A stretch of 64,000 nucleotides of DNA, taken from assembly GCF_000807255.1 (NCBI RefSeq), contig NZ_CP009268.1, positions 400,384 to 464,383 on the forward strand, given 5' to 3'. Shown one piece after another: positions 3,779 through 47,992 of the stretch; within the stretch, counting starts at the first letter, position 1, and each line of letters opens with the position of its first letter. The notes under the pieces are model-generated. The model was given only the letters and a program-made list of their open reading frames with translations, was not told the origin of the DNA and made no database searches. The DNA comes from Clostridium pasteurianum DSM 525 = ATCC 6013. GTDB taxonomy: Bacteria; Bacillota; Clostridia; Clostridiales; Clostridiaceae. A program made the position numbers and the translations under genes.

Positions 3779-4357
3779 TCATAAATTGAAAACTCCATTA
3801 AAGGATAACTTAGTTATAATTTCAGCAATTTTTTCAGGAGGCTCTTTCATTCCACAATTAAACCATTCAGAGATAATACCTAAATGAGCATAATAGAGAT
3901 ATGAAGACAAATATTCTCTAGATATAGGTAATTTATCTTTACCAGTTATCTTACAATAAAAGTTAAAGATATTATTCCCAAGATTGTTTTTTATCCATTC
4001 TTGAAGTTCTGAATTTCTATTTTCATCTAAAAGTGATTTTGCCAGCTTGTAATTATCTCTATAATAGCAAATGATTTTAGTAAAAAAATATTTAAAGTCC
4101 TCTTCACTAGGAGCATTTTCAAGTTTGTTCATATCATAAGATATCAGTTTTAATTCATTTAAAGCTGTATTTTCACAATGGGATAACAAATCATATTTAT
4201 CTTCATAATGAATATAAAAGGCTCCTCTGCTTATACCTGCATCCTTAGTTATATCTTTAACTGTTACTCTATCAAATCCCTTTTCATATACTAAATCGTA
4301 AAAAACCTTTAGAATCAATTCTTCTGTTTGAATATATCTTTTATCATTTTTATTCAT
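3779..4357 (-). CDS. TetR/AcrR family transcriptional regulator
   Basis: N-terminal HTH VTVKDITKDAGISRGAFYIHYEDKYDLL; divergent from the MFS efflux gene. Confidence 0.75.
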   Translation of the reverse strand: MNKNDKRYIQTEELILKVFYDLVYEKGFDRVTVKDITKDAGISRGAFYIHYEDKYDLLSHCENTALNELKLISYDMNKLENAPSEEDFKYFFTKIICYYRDNYKLAKSLLDENRNSELQEWIKNNLGNNIFNFYCKITGKDKLPISREYLSSYLYYAHLGIISEWFNCGMKEPPEKIAEIITKLSFNGVFNL

Positions 4358-13745: not shown

Positions 13746-14132
13746 ATTTCTATAGAAATAATTTGCTTATCTAACATTCGGAATAACCATTTACACCAAG
13801 CAACTACTAAGATAGTGAAAACCAAGCCATCAAGAGTAGTTATGGAAACACTTAATATTAAAGGTATGATTAAGAATAAGCATTTATCCAAAGCTATAGC
13901 ACAGCAAGGGTTATATGAGTTTAAAAGACAGCTTCAATACAAATGTGAATTTTATGGAATTAAATTTATTGAAGCTGATAAATGGTATCCATCATCAAAG
14001 ACTTGTAGTGAGTGTGGACATAAAAAGACTAAATTATCACTATCAGAAAGAACTTATATCTGTGAAGAATGTGGAGCAGTAATTGATAGAGATTTAAATG
14101 CTTCAATTAATTTAAGCAGATATTCAGCATAA
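13746..14132 (+). pseudogene. tnpB: 5'-truncated IS200/IS605-family TnpB (OrfB) remnant, C-terminal RuvC-II/zinc-finger/RuvC-III region only
   Basis: VVMETLNIKGM plus CSECGHKK...CEECGAVIDRDLNASINL equals the TnpB C-terminus; there is no upstream TnpB body and a stop in frame at 13743. Confidence 0.7.
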
Positions 14133-14240
14133 CTACATGAACAGTTATGTTTGAGGTGTAGGATTCGTTGTATCCGAAGTTAAGCCCTTGGAGTGTCATA
14201 TCAAACGAAAGTAGTGTATTCTTTTAGAATTACAAAATCG
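14133..14240 (+). mobile_element. Probable IS605-family right-end (RE) segment downstream of the tnpB remnant
   Basis: By position only; contains short hairpins (ttcg..cgaa) but I could not resolve the RE stem-loop. Confidence 0.3.
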
Positions 14241-14656
14241 GACACATTGAACGGGGAATTAAACAAGCTTTATGGAGTTCTATAAAGTTTTGGCAACGGT
14301 ATAGTACTATTCTTTTGGTTGTTAGGATTTATATTTAGATTTGGAGGATTTTTAATTCATATGCTGCTTATAGTAGCAGTGTTAGTATTTATAGTGAATG
14401 TAATTACAGGAAGAAAAAATAAGGGATAATTATGTATAATAATATTTTTTAATAATCTATGTGGATTTCTATAATGAAATTTACATAGGTTATTTTTGTT
14501 TATATTATATAGATATCCAATTTGGTTATTAAATATTAATAAGCATAAATAATCTGAATAGTCTAGCCTAAAAAATTAAAGCTTACTTATAGTTGACAAA
14601 TCAACTTATAGTTGTATAGTATTACTTATAGTGAATTTTAAGTGGGAGAATTGTAT

Positions 14657-20911: not shown

Positions 20912-20957
20912 GAGGAACGTGTATAGATTTATTTAAATGAATCTATACACGTTCCTT
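20912..20957 (+). terminator. Rho-independent terminator (16-bp stem)
   Basis: ggaacgtgtatagatt-tatttaaatg-aatctatacacgttcc followed by TTTTTAG. Confidence 0.6.
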
Positions 20958-20959
20958 TT

Positions 20960-21195
20960 TAGTAAATGTAAGTTGTTTTTCACCTGCCTAACTTGGCGTA
21001 AGTCTCCAACGCACTCTGCTTGCACTCTGTACAGCCCTCACATAAAATCAAAAATAAGATTTTAGTTCTCTGCTTTTCTTCAAGTGGGAGTTCGACGCCA
21101 AGTAAGGCATGCATTTGCAGTTCTAAAATTCAGATGGGGTAAAAGAATCCCCATCTGAATTTTAGAACTTGCTTCAATGTTTTATTATTATTATG
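20960..21195 (+). repeat. GC-rich structured intergenic repeat, copy 1 (about 235 bp; imperfect terminal inverted repeats; 3' 20-bp hairpin)
   Basis: About 85-90% identical to 47045..47288; terminal IR CTAACTTGGCGTAAGTCTCC / GGGAGTTCGACGCCAAGTAAG; internal hairpin gttctaaaattcagatgggg-taaaagaa-tccccatctgaattttagaac. Confidence 0.7.
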
Positions 21196-21289
21196 ACATT
21201 TGTCATAGTTAAATTATTCCTCTTGTTACTACTATATATTGTTTATTTATCTTATTATATAAATATAAGTAAAAACAGGGGGAATTAAG

Positions 21290-31204: not shown

Positions 31205-31447
31205 ATTTACCTCCTTACCAGCTAAAATTTCCATATATAAGAATAACTAATAAATAATTTACTCTCTTGTTTATTAACATTTTTTCTAATCTAACTTTTG
31301 TATTTCATTGCTGTACAGAGTATAAGTAGAGAAGTAAAATCTTGGCTTTGTGTAAATTGCTATACATAGTACTATGTGAGTATTAGCGAATAATCATAGG
31401 GGAAAGAAATTTATAGATAGAAAATAAAGACTTATGATTTTAAGCCT

Positions 31448-39816: not shown

Positions 39817-40058
39817 AGCTTAACTAGACAAAGAATTTGTAATACTCATTACTAACTGATAATATCAATGAATCTTACTTGATGGAAATTTGTTACATCA
39901 CTAAGTTTAGATGAGCTTTATATAGAGCAGGGAACCAAAGGTTTTAATTTTGTATGAGGCTTATATAGAGTGCAATAGAGTATTATAGCCATTAGTTGAG
40001 GAATGAATAATTAGCTTTTTATAAATCCAAAATTTTTAATATAAAGAAGGAGATAGTT

Positions 40059-45565: not shown

Positions 45566-45895
45566 ATGAAAGGCAAAAGTTATACAAAAGAATTAAAAGA
45601 AGAAATATTGAGAGAAGTAAAGGATGTAGGAAATGTTTCTTTAGTATCAAGAAGACATGGTATATCAAAATCAACCATATTTACTTGGATAAAGAAATCT
45701 GAGAATAAGGATGAGATTAAGGTTAAGCCAGGAAGAAAGGCTTTAGTTGAGGGACAAAAAGAGTTTGAAAGTGAAATTACAGAAGTAACAAAAGAGAATG
45801 ATCATCTTAAAAAGATTTTAGGTGAAAAAGATTTAGAAATAGCTATCCTTAAAGATTTAATAAAAAAAGCAAACCCTCAATTAAAGATAAAGTAG
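45566..45895 (+). CDS. IS3-family transposase OrfA (HTH, leucine zipper)
   Basis: Motif VSRRHGISKSTIFTWIKK; ends just after the A7G slippery site. Confidence 0.8.
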   Translation: MKGKSYTKELKEEILREVKDVGNVSLVSRRHGISKSTIFTWIKKSENKDEIKVKPGRKALVEGQKEFESEITEVTKENDHLKKILGEKDLEIAILKDLIKKANPQLKIK

Positions 45896-46821
45896 CAATA
45901 GCTAAAAAATATATACATCAAGGATATAACGCAGTTTTTGTGCTTAAAACAGTTAGGCTTCTTAGATCAACATATTACTATAATTTAAGTGTTGAAGGCA
46001 AACAAAAATCAAAACCTAAAGGCGGTAAGCCTAGAGGATACAGCCTAAATAAAAAGAATCAAAAGGTATGTGATGACCTTATTAAAGAGTTTATTATTGA
46101 GTCAATTGATGGTGATGCCATTAATTATGGTTATAGAAAAATAACTTATCATCTGCGAAAATATTATAATCTTATAATTAATCCTAAGAAGGTTTACAGG
46201 CTTTGCAAGGAGCTTGGCATACTTAAAGATCAAAGAGTTATCAAACCTAAAGTGAAAAAAACTATTGCAGCTAACAGAATTATAACAGGTTCCAATCAGC
46301 TTTGGGAAATGGATATAAAGTATGGTTATATTCATGGTCAAGATAAATTCTTCTACTTGTTAAACCTAATTGATATTTTTGATAGAAGTATTATTGATTA
46401 TCACATGGGATTTCACTGTGAAGCTAAAGATGCGTCAGCATTATTAAGAAAATGTTTAATAAGAAGAAATCTATTTGAGGAAGGAGTTAACAAGCCTGTA
46501 ATAAGAACAGATAACGGACCACAGTTTGTAAGTTATAAATTTAGTGAATGCTGTGAGGAAATCAAGGTAGAACACGAGAGAATACCAGTAAAAACACCAA
46601 ATAAAAATGCTCATATAGAATCATTTCACCGAATACTTGAGGATGAATGTTTTAAAAATAATGAATTTGAAACTTATGCACAAGCCTATGAGGCAGTAAA
46701 CGATTTTATGGTTCGATATAATGACAGAAGAATACATTCAAGCTTAGGTTTTATGTCACCAAATGAATTTTATACCCTTCATTTTAGAGAAAATCTAACT
46801 GGTATTGAAATAAGGGTCTAA
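45859..46821 (+). CDS. IS3-family transposase OrfB (rve integrase core; made as an OrfAB fusion by -1 frameshift)
   Basis: WEMDIKYGYI, IRTDNGPQF and the ..E.. of the DDE triad; the -1 frame is open from the slippery site (45862-45869) to the listed GTG at 45940. Confidence 0.8.
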   Translation, partial: NKKSKPSIKDKVAIAKKYIHQGYNAVFVLKTVRLLRSTYYYNLSVEGKQKSKPKGGKPRGYSLNKKNQKVCDDLIKEFIIESIDGDAINYGYRKITYHLRKYYNLIINPKKVYRLCKELGILKDQRVIKPKVKKTIAANRIITGSNQLWEMDIKYGYIHGQDKFFYLLNLIDIFDRSIIDYHMGFHCEAKDASALLRKCLIRRNLFEEGVNKPVIRTDNGPQFVSYKFSECCEEIKVEHERIPVKTPNKNAHIESFHRILEDECFKNNEFETYAQAYEAVNDFMVRYNDRRIHSSLGFMSPNEFYTLHFRENLTGIEIRV

Positions 46822-47044: not shown

Positions 47045-47288
47045 TTATTTCACCTGACTAACTTGGCGTAAGACTCCCACGCACTCTGTACAGCCCTCAC
47101 ACAAAATCGAAAAGAAGATTTTGGTTTTCTGCTTGCACTCTGTGAAAGCGATTCGCACCAAATTAAAATTTGGGCTCTCTGCTTTTCTTCAAGTGGGAGT
47201 TCGACGCCAAGTAAGCCATGCATTTGCAGTTCTAAAATTCAGATGGGGTAAAAGAATCTCCACCTGAATTAAGAACTTGCTTCAATGG
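47045..47288 (+). repeat. GC-rich structured intergenic repeat, copy 2 (contains an about 50-bp internal expansion relative to copy 1)
   Basis: Aligned by eye to 20960..21195; same terminal IRs and 3' hairpin; ends 10 nt before the NlpC/P60 ATG and supplies its GGAGA RBS. Confidence 0.7.
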
Positions 47289-47297
47289 AGACAATAT

Positions 47298-47750
47298 ATG
47301 AAAAATAAAAAGGTAATTATATTTGCACTGTCATTAATATTTATATTTATTATGGTGAGTACTTTTATTTCTAGCAATAAAGAGCTGAAAAATGGAGAAG
47401 CTGTTGTAAACTATGCTGAAAAATTTAAAGCTGTTAAGTATGTTTGGGGAGGGGAAAGCCCCAGCGGATTTGATTGCTCGGGATTTACCAAGTATGTATA
47501 TGCACATTTTGGAGTGAATCTTCCCCATAATGCTGCACAGCAATATAAGTATGGTAAAAAGATAAGCAAAAATAGCCTTAAGCCTGGAGATTTAGTTTTC
47601 TTTGGGAAAAAGTCTAACAGCATATATCATGTTGGGATATACATTGGCAATGGTAACTTTATAAATGCACCTAAAGCAGGAGAAAATGTAAAGATAACAG
47701 CACTATGTTATATGCCTGATTATTATGGCGCTAAGAGAATTAAAATTTAG
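47298..47750 (+). CDS. NlpC/P60-family cell-wall peptidase (secreted)
   Basis: Signal peptide; the catalytic Cys motif DCSGFTKYVYAHFG; YHVGIYIG His region. Confidence 0.8.
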   Translation: MKNKKVIIFALSLIFIFIMVSTFISSNKELKNGEAVVNYAEKFKAVKYVWGGESPSGFDCSGFTKYVYAHFGVNLPHNAAQQYKYGKKISKNSLKPGDLVFFGKKSNSIYHVGIYIGNGNFINAPKAGENVKITALCYMPDYYGAKRIKI

Positions 47751-47992
47751 AATTGACTGTCCCAGAAAATTAGGAACTAGGCATTCTTTTTTAATAGAAT
47801 GTGAGTTGTTAGAATGTATAGTTATCCTATAAACAGAGTTCTTAGTGTGTGGCTGCTGTACAGAGTGTTACAGGTGACAGCTATCATATGTATATGTTAT
47901 TAATTAGAGAAGTTAATGTTGTAAATATGGCAGTTTACTGAGGAAAAGAAACAGAAAGCCCCATCCCTTTAGGGGTAGGGCAAGCTTCCACA

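What the first reader, a model, noticed from the sequence alone, without database searches (positions are those of the whole stretch)
20960..21195. Novel GC-rich structured repeat family (two full copies plus fragments)
A roughly 235-bp element occurs at 20960-21195 and again at 47045-47288 (about 85-90% identity; copy 2 has a 50-bp internal expansion made of the sub-repeat CTCTGCTTGCACTCTGT). It is visibly more GC-rich than its surroundings. It has imperfect terminal inverted repeats (CTAACTTGGCGTAAGTCTCC ... GGGAGTTCGACGCCAAGTAAG) and a 3' hairpin with a 20-bp perfect stem (gttctaaaattcagatgggg / tccccatctgaattttagaac). Both copies end a few bases upstream of a plus-strand start codon; copy 2 even supplies the GGAGA RBS of the NlpC/P60 gene. 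A deletion derivative (tCACCTGtaaCACTCTGTACAGCagcc) sits on the opposite strand at about 47855-47890, and the palindromic core CTGTACAGAG recurs at 31300. These features fit a MITE-like or REP/BIME-like mobile structured repeat, or a cis-regulatory RNA.
Basis: seen in the sequence. Interest (0 to 1): 0.6.

Follow-up and report, generated by a model that had tools for sequence, protein, structure and literature searches.

The report
Small mobile hairpin repeat of Clostridium
The two GC-rich copies belong to a previously undescribed family of small, gene-less, hairpin-forming mobile DNA repeats found in Clostridium pasteurianum and its relatives; this is an ordinary kind of genomic parasite, not a gene-control RNA.

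Summary
The repeat is real. Two intact copies lie at window 20979-21177 and 47049-47285 (+), with three decayed relics on the minus strand. The window is Clostridium pasteurianum CP013019.1.

The same element occurs 5 times in C. arbusti. It is also found in 19 loci of one set of metagenome samples, with up to 3 copies per 13-14 kb. Every copy lies between genes at an unrelated place, in either orientation to its neighbours.

Each copy has a conserved core of 132 nt: hairpin 1, a linker, hairpin 2 and a 9-nt tail ending TTCAA. Between 0 and 4 hairpin modules of about 50 nt sit in the tip of hairpin 1.

In C. arbusti one copy sits exactly at the stop codon of an IS607 tnpB gene. IS607 relatives with 89-91% identical TnpB lack it, so it is a discrete insertion.

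The element has no terminal inverted repeats and no clear target duplication. One end always abuts T-TT(C/A)A.

It has no Rfam match, no promoter or terminator of its own, and no transposase nearby.

Best reading: a non-autonomous mobile repeat moved in trans, possibly by an IS200/IS605-type single-strand transposase (inferred, not shown). The riboswitch/leader reading and the "IS end" reading are rejected. This is a new member of a known kind, of modest interest.

The parts
20979..21177 (+). Intact copy 1 (199 nt), lying between the def terminator (20913-20956) and the ABC-transporter operon.
   Evidence: nhmmer E = 4.7e-60; fold z = -8.9.
20988..21106 (+). Copy 1, hairpin 1. The outer stem is CT.ACTTGGCG / CGCCAAGT.AG and the inner stem is CTCCAAC / GTGGGAG. 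The variable array sits in its tip.
   Evidence: Fold. Across 20 copies the pairs are 99.5% and 91% formed.
21011..21075 (+). Copy 1 variable region: an abortive module GCACTCTGCTT (21011-21021) followed by one B'-type hairpin module (21022-21075).
   Evidence: Module dissection of all copies.
21120..21177 (+). Copy 1, hairpin 2 (21120-21168, a perfect 20-bp stem in this copy only) plus the invariant 9-nt tail TTGCTTCAA.
47049..47285 (+). Intact copy 2 (237 nt). It ends 1 nt before the RBS GGAGA (47287-47291) of the NlpC/P60 gene, whose ATG is at 47298.
   Evidence: fold z = -6.0. The copy is identical in three C. pasteurianum strains.
47081..47184 (+). Copy 2 variable region: module B' (47081-47134) and module C (47135-47184).
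   Evidence: nhmmer splits the match at 47134/47135.
47229..47285 (+). Copy 2, hairpin 2 (47229-47276, the imperfect consensus type) plus the tail TTGCTTCAA.
31296..31357 (-). Relic consisting of the end of one module joined to the start of the next (GATTTTacTTCTCTACTTatACTCTGTACAGC). No core is present.
   Evidence: blastn E = 6.6e-6 with L043 as query; sequence read.
39924..39985 (-). Relic consisting of a single decayed B'-type module. No core is present.
   Evidence: nhmmer E = 0.0019; blastn E = 6.5e-6 with L042 as query; sequence read.
47846..47890 (-). Probable heavily deleted relic, with TCACCTG, CACTCTGTACAGC..CACACA and TAAGAACT in element order. It lies downstream of the NlpC/P60 gene, in inverted orientation to copy 2.
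   Evidence: blastn E = 0.004 and a 13-mer match with E = 0.16. The collinearity was read directly. This part is marginal.

Best explanation
The element is a small, gene-less, non-autonomous mobile DNA repeat.

Anatomy:
- A 132-nt core consists of a short 5' lead (TT[C/A]ACCTGACTA), hairpin 1, a 13-nt linker, hairpin 2 and the tail TTGCTTCAA.
- The tip of hairpin 1 holds 0-4 tandem modules of about 50 nt. Each module carries its own AT-rich hairpin.
- Module number changes by slippage or microhomology deletion between the module borders (...TCTCTGCTT|GCACTCTG...).

Insertion:
- The element inserts into AT-rich intergenic DNA at a TTTNA(A) motif.
- It has no terminal inverted repeats and makes no clear target duplication.

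Mechanism (inferred):
- These features are those of single-strand 'peel-and-paste' elements, that is, derivatives of IS200/IS605-type elements known as PATEs.
- I therefore infer that a hairpin-recognising HUH/Y1 transposase supplied in trans moves it.

Effects on neighbouring genes look incidental. An example is the 237 structured nucleotides placed in the NlpC/P60 leader 1 nt from its RBS.

Shown here: repetition, anatomy, insertion polymorphism, the target motif, and the absence of TIRs, genes and Rfam matches. Inferred only: the identity of the transposase and the single-strand mechanism.
For: Copy number and spread:
- The exact 20-mer GTGGGAGTTCGACGCCAAGT occurs at 5 C. arbusti loci and at 19 metagenome loci.
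- nhmmer finds further copies lacking that 20-mer, up to 3 per 13-14 kb.
- Flanks are unrelated and every copy is intergenic.

Insertion polymorphism:
- C. arbusti L003 reads ...ATATCACTTTCA[CCTGAC...CTTGCTTCA]AAGATATTC.
- IS607 relatives with 89-91% identical TnpB read ...ATATCAGTTTAAAAGATATTC, the same length once the element is removed.

Boundaries and target:
- In 22 of 22 distinct copies the left flank is T followed by TT(C/A)A, and the right end is (G)CTTCAA.
- Flanks beyond these motifs are AT-rich but otherwise unconserved.
- The ends are not reverse complements of each other.

Structure:
- The fold is supported, with z = -8.9 and -6.0.
- 92% of cells are paired across 20 copies, against 22-51% when the partners are slid.
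- Two compensatory pairs occur in hairpin 2 (A-U, G-C and C-G).

Modules:
- Arrays seen are none, B, BC, CA, BCA and ABCA.
- Deletion derivatives such as L048 and L044 are fused at AAGTG microhomology.

Nested insertion:
- The element lies inside another repeat family at one fixed site in 3 loci.

Negative results consistent with this reading:
- No Rfam match.
- No intrinsic promoter or terminator.
Against: - No autonomous partner was found. None of the roughly 30 copies carries or adjoins a transposase.
- 320 kb of held Clostridium DNA contains no Y1 TnpA homologue (tblastn with IS200 TnpA).
- Plasmid, phage and viral collections hold nothing with these ends.
- The two hairpins do not resemble each other, whereas the left and right hairpins of IS608 and ISDra2 do (from my own knowledge of those elements).
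- Orientation relative to neighbouring genes is about 50:50. This gives no sign of the replication-strand bias expected for single-strand transposition.
- The functional strand is unresolved. One-sided transitions favour G.U pairs on the + strand (9 versus 2), but the minus strand folds better as RNA in 20 of 22 copies.
- The exact junction cannot be placed within a 5-nt window, because TTCA occurs on both sides. The second empty-site comparison (the second repeat family) disagrees by 1 nt.
- Copies are 96% identical, so covariation is almost uninformative.
Confidence: 0.65

Rival explanations
1. The element is a cis-regulatory leader RNA or riboswitch that controls the downstream ABC transporter and NlpC/P60 genes, with hairpin 2 acting as an expression platform.
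For: - Both window copies lie upstream of + strand genes in the sense orientation.
- The predicted structure is strong.
- Copy 2 abuts the RBS.
Against: - Across 22 loci the orientation to the downstream gene is 10 same and 12 opposite, and the neighbouring genes are unrelated.
- Copy 1 is separated from its gene by 112 nt. That spacer contains a conserved operator-like palindrome and sequence shared with relatives.
- Hairpin 2 has no U-tract, and no terminator was called inside the element.
- There is no Rfam hit.
- One copy sits inside an IS607 element.
Confidence: 0.04
2. The element is the right end, or part of the guide RNA (omegaRNA/reRNA) scaffold, of an IS607-family TnpB transposon. 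The solo copies would then be what remains after the genes were lost.
For: - In C. arbusti L003 the element begins inside the last codons of a TnpB ORF (Pfam OrfB_IS605 and Cas12f1-like_TNB domains). A serine-recombinase TnpA lies upstream.
- The window holds a decayed IS607 tnpB remnant.
Against: - Five IS607 relatives with 89-91% identical TnpB lack the element. They run straight from the tnpB stop codon into the same downstream sequence.
- The true reRNA core, RAGATH-18, lies 51 nt further downstream in L003. It is present without the element next to the window's tnpB remnant.
- IS607 ends (GG... and ...TTGGTAACGG) and their TTTATAAA repeats are unrelated to the element's ends. Published IS607 elements use a GG core and a TGGG motif (bioRxiv 10.1101/2023.11.20.567912).
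- No solo copy has RAGATH-18 nearby.
Confidence: 0.03
3. The element is a host-adopted structured repeat that is no longer mobile, comparable to REP, ERIC or pneumococcal BOX elements. It would be kept because its hairpins act on transcripts or DNA, for example in mRNA stabilisation, transcription attenuation or protein binding.
For: - The core is 96% identical among copies from different species, in genomes whose intergenic DNA is otherwise unalignable.
- GC content is 0.42 in a 0.30 genome.
- Both window copies are fixed and identical in three C. pasteurianum strains.
- The locus upstream of the ABC operon in a relative whose ATPase is 82% identical holds a module-like relic. Its alignment score exceeds all 500 shuffles, z about 7. 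This suggests copy 1 is old yet still intact.
Against: - High identity is equally explained by recent spread or by gene conversion.
- Decayed relics in the window show that copies are not generally protected.
- There is no orientation bias relative to genes.
- No expression data are available here.
- This reading is compatible with a mobile origin rather than an alternative to it.
Confidence: 0.2
4. The two copies are a local segmental duplication, or the match is a chance similarity.
For: Only two intact copies are present in this 64-kb window.
Against: - The flanks of the two copies share nothing.
- About 30 further copies occur at unrelated loci in other genomes.
- E-values reach 1e-60.
Confidence: 0.01

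Closest known systems
IS200/IS605-derived non-autonomous elements (palindrome-associated transposable elements, PATEs)
   Same: - Small and gene-less.
- No terminal inverted repeats and no target duplication.
- Subterminal hairpins close to both ends.
- A conserved T-rich 4-5-nt motif abutting one end.
- A right end finishing in TCAA, as in IS608 (this last point is from my own knowledge).
   Different: - The two hairpins are unrelated in sequence.
- No cognate IS with the same ends and no Y1 transposase was found.
- An internal variable array of hairpin modules is not a described PATE feature.
- Membership is therefore not shown.
Pneumococcal BOX elements (boxA-(boxB)n-boxC)
   Same: - Modular build: conserved 5' and 3' parts that pair with each other, enclosing a variable number of tandem modules of about 45-50 nt.
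- Intergenic and multicopy.
- The mobilising enzyme is uncertain.
   Different: - Different host clade.
- Sequence relatedness was not tested; the resemblance is recalled from the literature, not computed.
- Here the modules are of three distinct hairpin types (A, B, C) in a preferred order, rather than one repeated box.
ERIC/IRU and other imperfect-palindrome intergenic repeats; the MITE containing a minisatellite in Porphyromonas gingivalis (PMC4596501, seen by title and abstract)
   Same: - Structured intergenic repeats whose length variants arise from internal insertions or tandem units at fixed internal sites.
   Different: - Those with known mechanisms have TIRs and TSDs. This element has neither.
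IS607 TnpB guide RNA (RAGATH-18 reRNA; PMC11061315)
   Same: - Found immediately downstream of an IS607 tnpB in one C. arbusti locus.
- Structured and of similar length.
   Different: - It is an insertion between tnpB and the reRNA, not part of either.
- It does not match the RAGATH-18 model.

Membership tests
Classical MITE | Terminal inverted repeats at the two extremities | tested here: not met
The 5' end (TTCACCTGACTAAC...) and the reverse complement of the 3' end (TTGAAGCAAGTTC...) do not match.
Classical MITE | Target-site duplication flanking each copy | tested here: not met
   The only shared junction sequence is TT(C/A)A on the left and TTCA on the right. These differ in 10 of 22 copies. 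The IS607 empty site is explained by a simple insertion with no extra duplicated bases.
Classical MITE | Small, non-coding, many copies at unrelated sites | tested here: met
   Copies are 132-339 nt. There are about 30 copies in C. pasteurianum, C. arbusti and a metagenomic Clostridium, all intergenic.
IS200/IS605-type non-autonomous element (PATE) | No TIR and no TSD, subterminal hairpins, and a conserved short motif abutting one end | tested here: met
   Hairpin 1 starts 9 nt from the left junction and hairpin 2 ends 9 nt from the right end. T-TT(C/A)A is invariant on the left and TTCAA on the right.
IS200/IS605-type non-autonomous element (PATE) | Ends shared with an autonomous IS that encodes a Y1 (HUH) TnpA | tested here: inconclusive
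   None of 24 exact-match loci, nor the extra nhmmer copies, is linked to a transposase. There is no Y1 TnpA in 320 kb of held DNA. Whole genomes could not be scanned.
IS200/IS605-type non-autonomous element (PATE) | Strand-specific activity (orientation bias with replication; structure on one strand) | tested here: inconclusive
   Orientation to neighbouring genes is about 50:50. The strand signals from wobble pairs and from folding energy conflict.
IS607 right end / RAGATH-18 reRNA | A constant part of IS607 elements that matches the RAGATH-18 model | tested here: not met
   Absent from five close IS607 relatives. No cmscan match. RAGATH-18 lies separately downstream.
Riboswitch / cis-regulatory leader | Fixed sense orientation upstream of a recurring gene class | tested here: not met
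   Orientation is 10 same and 12 opposite, with unrelated neighbours.
Riboswitch / cis-regulatory leader | Match to a curated RNA family, or covariation support for a conserved fold | tested here: inconclusive
   No Rfam match. Only 2 compensatory pairs, because copies are 96% identical.
REP / BIME / REPIN | Palindromic units of 20-40 nt with a conserved tetranucleotide, in hundreds of copies, associated with a RAYT transposase | tested here: not met
   The unit is 132-339 nt with two unlike hairpins. A RAYT gene could not be searched for genome-wide.
BOX-type modular repeats | A-(B)n-C modular architecture | tested here: met
   Arrays of 0-4 modules lie between constant 5' and 3' parts. This is a resemblance of design only.
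BOX-type modular repeats | Sequence homology to pneumococcal boxA/B/C | not tested
   No reference BOX sequence was available in the tools used.

The most novel reading that the evidence does not exclude
The element could be a trans-mobilised single-strand transposon derivative whose structured transcript also works as an RNA. Two possibilities are an orphan guide-like or decoy RNA for a TnpB/IscB-type nuclease encoded elsewhere, and a multi-hairpin protein sponge. In either case the variable module array would tune that activity. The insertion at the tnpB stop codon of an IS607 element would then reflect an interaction between two mobile systems rather than chance.
Probability: 0.07. Interest if true: 0.6.

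Novelty: new member of a known kind. Interest (0 to 1): 0.3.

Why it matters
- It adds a defined family to the poorly catalogued small repeats of Clostridium sensu stricto, with stated boundaries, a target motif and a module grammar.
- Such repeats break short-read assemblies. Several public contigs end inside this element.
- They can be mistaken for regulatory RNAs or for IS ends.
- They can alter expression of adjacent genes. Here 237 structured nucleotides sit 1 nt from the RBS of a cell-wall hydrolase gene.
- If the mobilising enzyme proved to be an HUH transposase acting on two unlike hairpins, the known substrate range of that mechanism would widen modestly.

Tried and rejected
1. Known RNA family. 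cmscan at gathering thresholds over the window and five loci, and at E <= 10 on both copies, gave only chance microRNA and snoRNA hits on the hairpins.

2. IS607 right end / omegaRNA. This was my working idea. I rejected it when close IS607 relatives proved to lack the element and RAGATH-18 was found downstream.

3. Mobilisation by IS607 TnpA. The IS607 ends and their repeats are unrelated to the element's ends.

4. Phage or plasmid origin.
- blastn against phages gave nothing.
- blastn against plasmids gave only a 50-nt module-like piece in C. taeniosporum pCt2.
- Three viral scans gave only chance hits in high-GC coding DNA.

5. Search for a Y1 transposase partner.
- tblastn with IS200 TnpA found none in the held loci.
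- The plasmid route could not be filtered by host and was dropped.

6. Modules as an independent mini-element. No solitary modules occur in 320 kb of related DNA, so the three solitary pieces in the window are read as relics.

7. Bridge-RNA / IS110-like reading. Rejected because the flanks share only about 5 nt, not an 11-14-nt target.

8. Integron attC, group I/II intron and terminator readings. Rejected from the sequence itself:
- there are no GTTRRRY cores;
- the element is too small for an intron;
- there is no U-tract.

9. Orthologous empty site for copy 1. The closest relatives (ATPase 81-82% identical) are too diverged. One holds a module-like relic at the same locus; the other contig ends too early.

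Full report
**Observation**

Reading the two regions and aligning them confirms a repeated element. Comparison with all other family members fixes its limits at window 20979-21177 (199 nt) and 47049-47285 (237 nt), both on the + strand.

Both copies start TTCACCTG(A/C)CTAACTTGGCG and end CTTGCTTCAA, and the flanks are unrelated. Self-BLAST gives E-values of 1e-47 to 1e-50 between the copies. A family profile scores them at 4.7e-60 and 3.9e-49.

GC content is 0.42 and 0.43, against 0.26-0.27 in the flanks and 0.30 for the window. As single strands the copies fold much better than dinucleotide shuffles, with z = -8.9 and -6.0.

Several details in the finding need correction:
- The inverted repeat is an internal stem, not a terminal repeat.
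- The perfect 20-bp hairpin is peculiar to copy 1.
- Copy 1 ends 112 nt before its gene's start codon.
- The GGAGA ribosome-binding site next to copy 2 lies just outside the element, in DNA that differs at every other copy.

**Origin of the window**

The peptide deformylase and NlpC/P60 proteins encoded beside the two copies are found with identical sequence on Clostridium pasteurianum CP013019.1. The returned loci match the window exactly. Both copies are identical in two further C. pasteurianum strains.

**The family**

An exact 20-mer from the element (GTGGGAGTTCGACGCCAAGT) was scanned against one genome per species. It hit five contigs of C. arbusti SL206 and one chance site in a high-GC actinobacterium. 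The window's own species did not appear, so its genome is evidently not in that collection.

The same scan of metagenome contigs gave 19 loci from one group of samples. A profile search of the DNA fetched around them found further copies lacking the exact 20-mer, up to three per 13-14 kb.

All copies are 132-339 nt and none contains or adjoins a gene for a transposase. tblastn of 320 kb of held sequence with IS200 TnpA and with the IS607 proteins found nothing beyond the IS607 elements described below. Viral contigs, phage genomes and plasmids hold no copy.

**Anatomy**

Dissection of all copies shows a constant 132-nt core:
- a short lead;
- hairpin 1, with outer stem ACTTGGCG/CGCCAAGT, internal loops TAAG and TTCGA, and inner stem CTCCCAC/GTGGGAG;
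- a 13-nt linker;
- hairpin 2, GTTCTAAAATTCAGATGGGG...CCCCACCTGAATTAAGAAC, which in the consensus carries an A.C mismatch, an A.A mismatch and a one-base bulge;
- the tail TTGCTTCAA.

The tip of hairpin 1 holds 0 to 4 tandem modules of 50-56 nt. Every module begins GCACTCTGTGAAAG(C/T)GA (or GCACTCTGTACAGCCC in the B' variant) and ends TCT(G/A)CTT. Each encloses one of three different AT-rich hairpins, named A, B and C here.

Arrays seen are none, B, BC, CA, BCA and ABCA. Copies such as L048 and L044 are deletion derivatives fused at short microhomology. The number of modules therefore changes by slippage or unequal recombination.

In the window, copy 1 carries an 11-nt abortive module plus one B' module. 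Copy 2 carries B' plus C.

**The IS607 lead and its rejection**

In C. arbusti locus L003 the element begins within the last codons of a 383-aa TnpB. A MerR-type serine-recombinase TnpA lies upstream, which makes this an IS607-family element. That suggested the repeat was the right end, or the guide-RNA scaffold, of that transposon.

Three results reject this idea:
- Rfam places RAGATH-18 51 nt downstream of the element in L003. RAGATH-18 is the published core of the IS607 TnpB guide RNA (PMC11061315).
- The window contains a decayed tnpB (13815-14132) followed directly by RAGATH-18 (14185-14258), with no copy of the element between them.
- Proteins 89-91% identical to the L003 TnpB end ...GLEISV or ...GLEVSA instead of ...GLEISLSPD, and their loci lack the element.

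Clostridium sp. CX1 reads ...GAAATATCAGTTTAAAAGATATTCTAAATTGGG. C. arbusti reads ...GAAATATCACTTTCA[CCTGAC...CTTGCTTCA]AAGATATTCTAAATTGGG.

The element is thus a discrete insertion at a TTTAA that includes the tnpB stop codon. According to PMC11061315 the guide RNA starts 13 nt downstream of tnpB, so the insert sits between the gene and its guide RNA.

The IS607 ends themselves (GG... on the left...TTGGTAACGG on the right, with TTTATAAA repeats) are unrelated to the ends of the element. They fit the published GG-core, TGGG-motif behaviour of IS607 transposases.

**Target and boundaries**

In all 22 distinct complete copies the left flank ends in T and is followed by TT(C/A)A (12 with C, 10 with A). 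The right end is TTCAA in 20 of 22. Beyond these motifs the flanks are AT-rich but unconserved.

Because TTCA occurs on both sides, the junction cannot be placed within a 5-nt window. The left and right motifs differ in nearly half the copies, which argues against a true target duplication. The two extremities are not inverted repeats.

A second comparison comes from three loci where the element lies at one fixed position inside another palindromic repeat of about 164 nt. It agrees on a TTTNAA-type site but differs by one base in a T-run, so it does not sharpen the boundary.

**Not a leader RNA**

Among the 22 loci where a downstream gene could be called, the downstream gene is in the same orientation as the element 10 times and opposite 12 times. 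The upstream gene is the same 9 times and opposite 12 times. No copy lies inside an ORF other than the tnpB terminus.

Simple scans find no promoter or terminator intrinsic to the element. The only terminator near copy 1 is that of the deformylase gene, upstream of the element.

**Structure and strand**

On a 20-copy core alignment (96% mean identity), 92% of cells form standard pairs, against 22-51% when the partners are slid. Only two pairs show changes on both sides.

One-sided changes mostly give G.U on the + strand (9 cells against 2 that would be wobble on the minus strand). However, the consensus A.C mismatch of hairpin 2 would be G.U on the minus strand, and the minus strand folds more stably as RNA in 20 of 22 copies. 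The functional strand, and whether the relevant molecule is RNA or single-stranded DNA, remain open.

**Relics and age**

Using better-matching family members as queries, three decayed pieces appear in the window, all on the minus strand:
- 31296-31357, a module-module junction (E about 7e-6);
- 39924-39985, a single module (E about 6e-6; profile E = 0.002);
- 47846-47890, marginal (E = 0.004), but collinear with the element.

No solitary modules occur in the related loci, so these pieces are read as remains of older copies.

The nearest relatives of the ABC-transporter ATPase beside copy 1 are only 81-82% identical. In one of them the same intergenic region shares the downstream palindrome ATGACATTTGTCAT. 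Just upstream it holds a module-like relic whose alignment score exceeds all 500 shuffles. This suggests, weakly, that copy 1 is old.

**Interpretation**

The data show a multicopy, gene-less, hairpin-rich element that has inserted at unrelated AT-rich intergenic sites, inside an IS607 element and inside another repeat. It has a constant short T-rich motif at one junction and lacks both terminal inverted repeats and a clear target duplication.

Among known transposition styles this combination is characteristic of the single-strand, HUH/Y1-transposase elements (IS200/IS605) and their non-autonomous derivatives. That is my preferred mechanism. It is an inference, for three reasons:
- No partner element or transposase was found.
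- The two hairpins are unlike each other.
- No replication-strand bias is visible.

In overall design (constant ends that pair, with a variable number of internal modules) the element most resembles pneumococcal BOX elements. That is a resemblance recalled from the literature, not a tested relationship.

Host adoption of some copies for a structural role cannot be excluded. It would be compatible with a mobile origin.

**Verdict**

The finding is real and the 'mobile structured repeat' reading is broadly right. The regulatory-RNA reading and the classical-MITE details are not.

It is a new family of a familiar kind of element and is of modest interest. Practical points:
- It breaks assemblies.
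- It can mimic an IS end or a riboswitch.
- In this genome it places a large structure directly against the RBS of a cell-wall hydrolase gene.

Noticed in passing
window 13815-14132 (+) and 14185-14258 (+): A decayed IS607-family element. Only the C-terminal 105 codons of tnpB remain (61% identical to the C. arbusti TnpB). About 50 nt downstream lies an intact-looking RAGATH-18 guide-RNA core (72.7 bits, E = 1.2e-12). No tnpA is nearby.
   Followed up: partly
window 45566-46821 (+): An IS3-family insertion (HTH_Tnp_1 plus rve ORFs) lies about 230 nt upstream of copy 2. It is present in CP013019.1 but absent from the same locus in two other C. pasteurianum strains (L012, L013), so it is a strain-level insertion polymorphism.
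   Followed up: partly
L003 about 3890-4021 (minus strand), C. arbusti: The repeat inserted exactly at the TAA stop codon of an IS607 tnpB. This replaces the last residue and lengthens the protein by 3 aa (380 to 383). It also separates the gene from its guide RNA by 132 nt. Whether this IS607 copy still works is unknown.
   Followed up: partly
L036 5841-6004; L006 1307-1465 and 7531-7696; L004 1055-1217 and 615-741; L039, L051, L053: A second, unrelated palindromic repeat family of about 164 nt. It has terminal inverted repeats of about 25 nt (TTAGGCATGTGAAAATAAATA...TTATTTATTTGAATATGCCTAA) and no Rfam match. In three loci it hosts the GC-rich element at one fixed internal site. It is not present in the window.
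   Followed up: partly
L054 1494-1554 (Clostridium taeniosporum plasmid pCt2, next to agrB/agrD): A sequence resembling module B of the element (nhmmer E = 2.6e-4) is embedded in a different palindromic repeat. No copy of the core is present. This hints that the modules, or their ancestor, circulate more widely than the core.
   Followed up: no
window 21193-21206 (+): The perfect palindrome ATGACATTTGTCAT lies between copy 1 and the ABC-transporter operon. It is conserved at the same place in two relatives whose ATPase is only 81-82% identical (ATGACATTTGTCAT and ATGACAAATGTCAT), so it is probably an operator for that operon.
   Followed up: no
L008, L009, L010, L014, L015 (Logan short-read assemblies of C. 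pasteurianum): Several public contigs end inside or at the edge of the element. This shows that the repeat breaks short-read assemblies and implies more copies in the genome than the two in this window.
   Followed up: no
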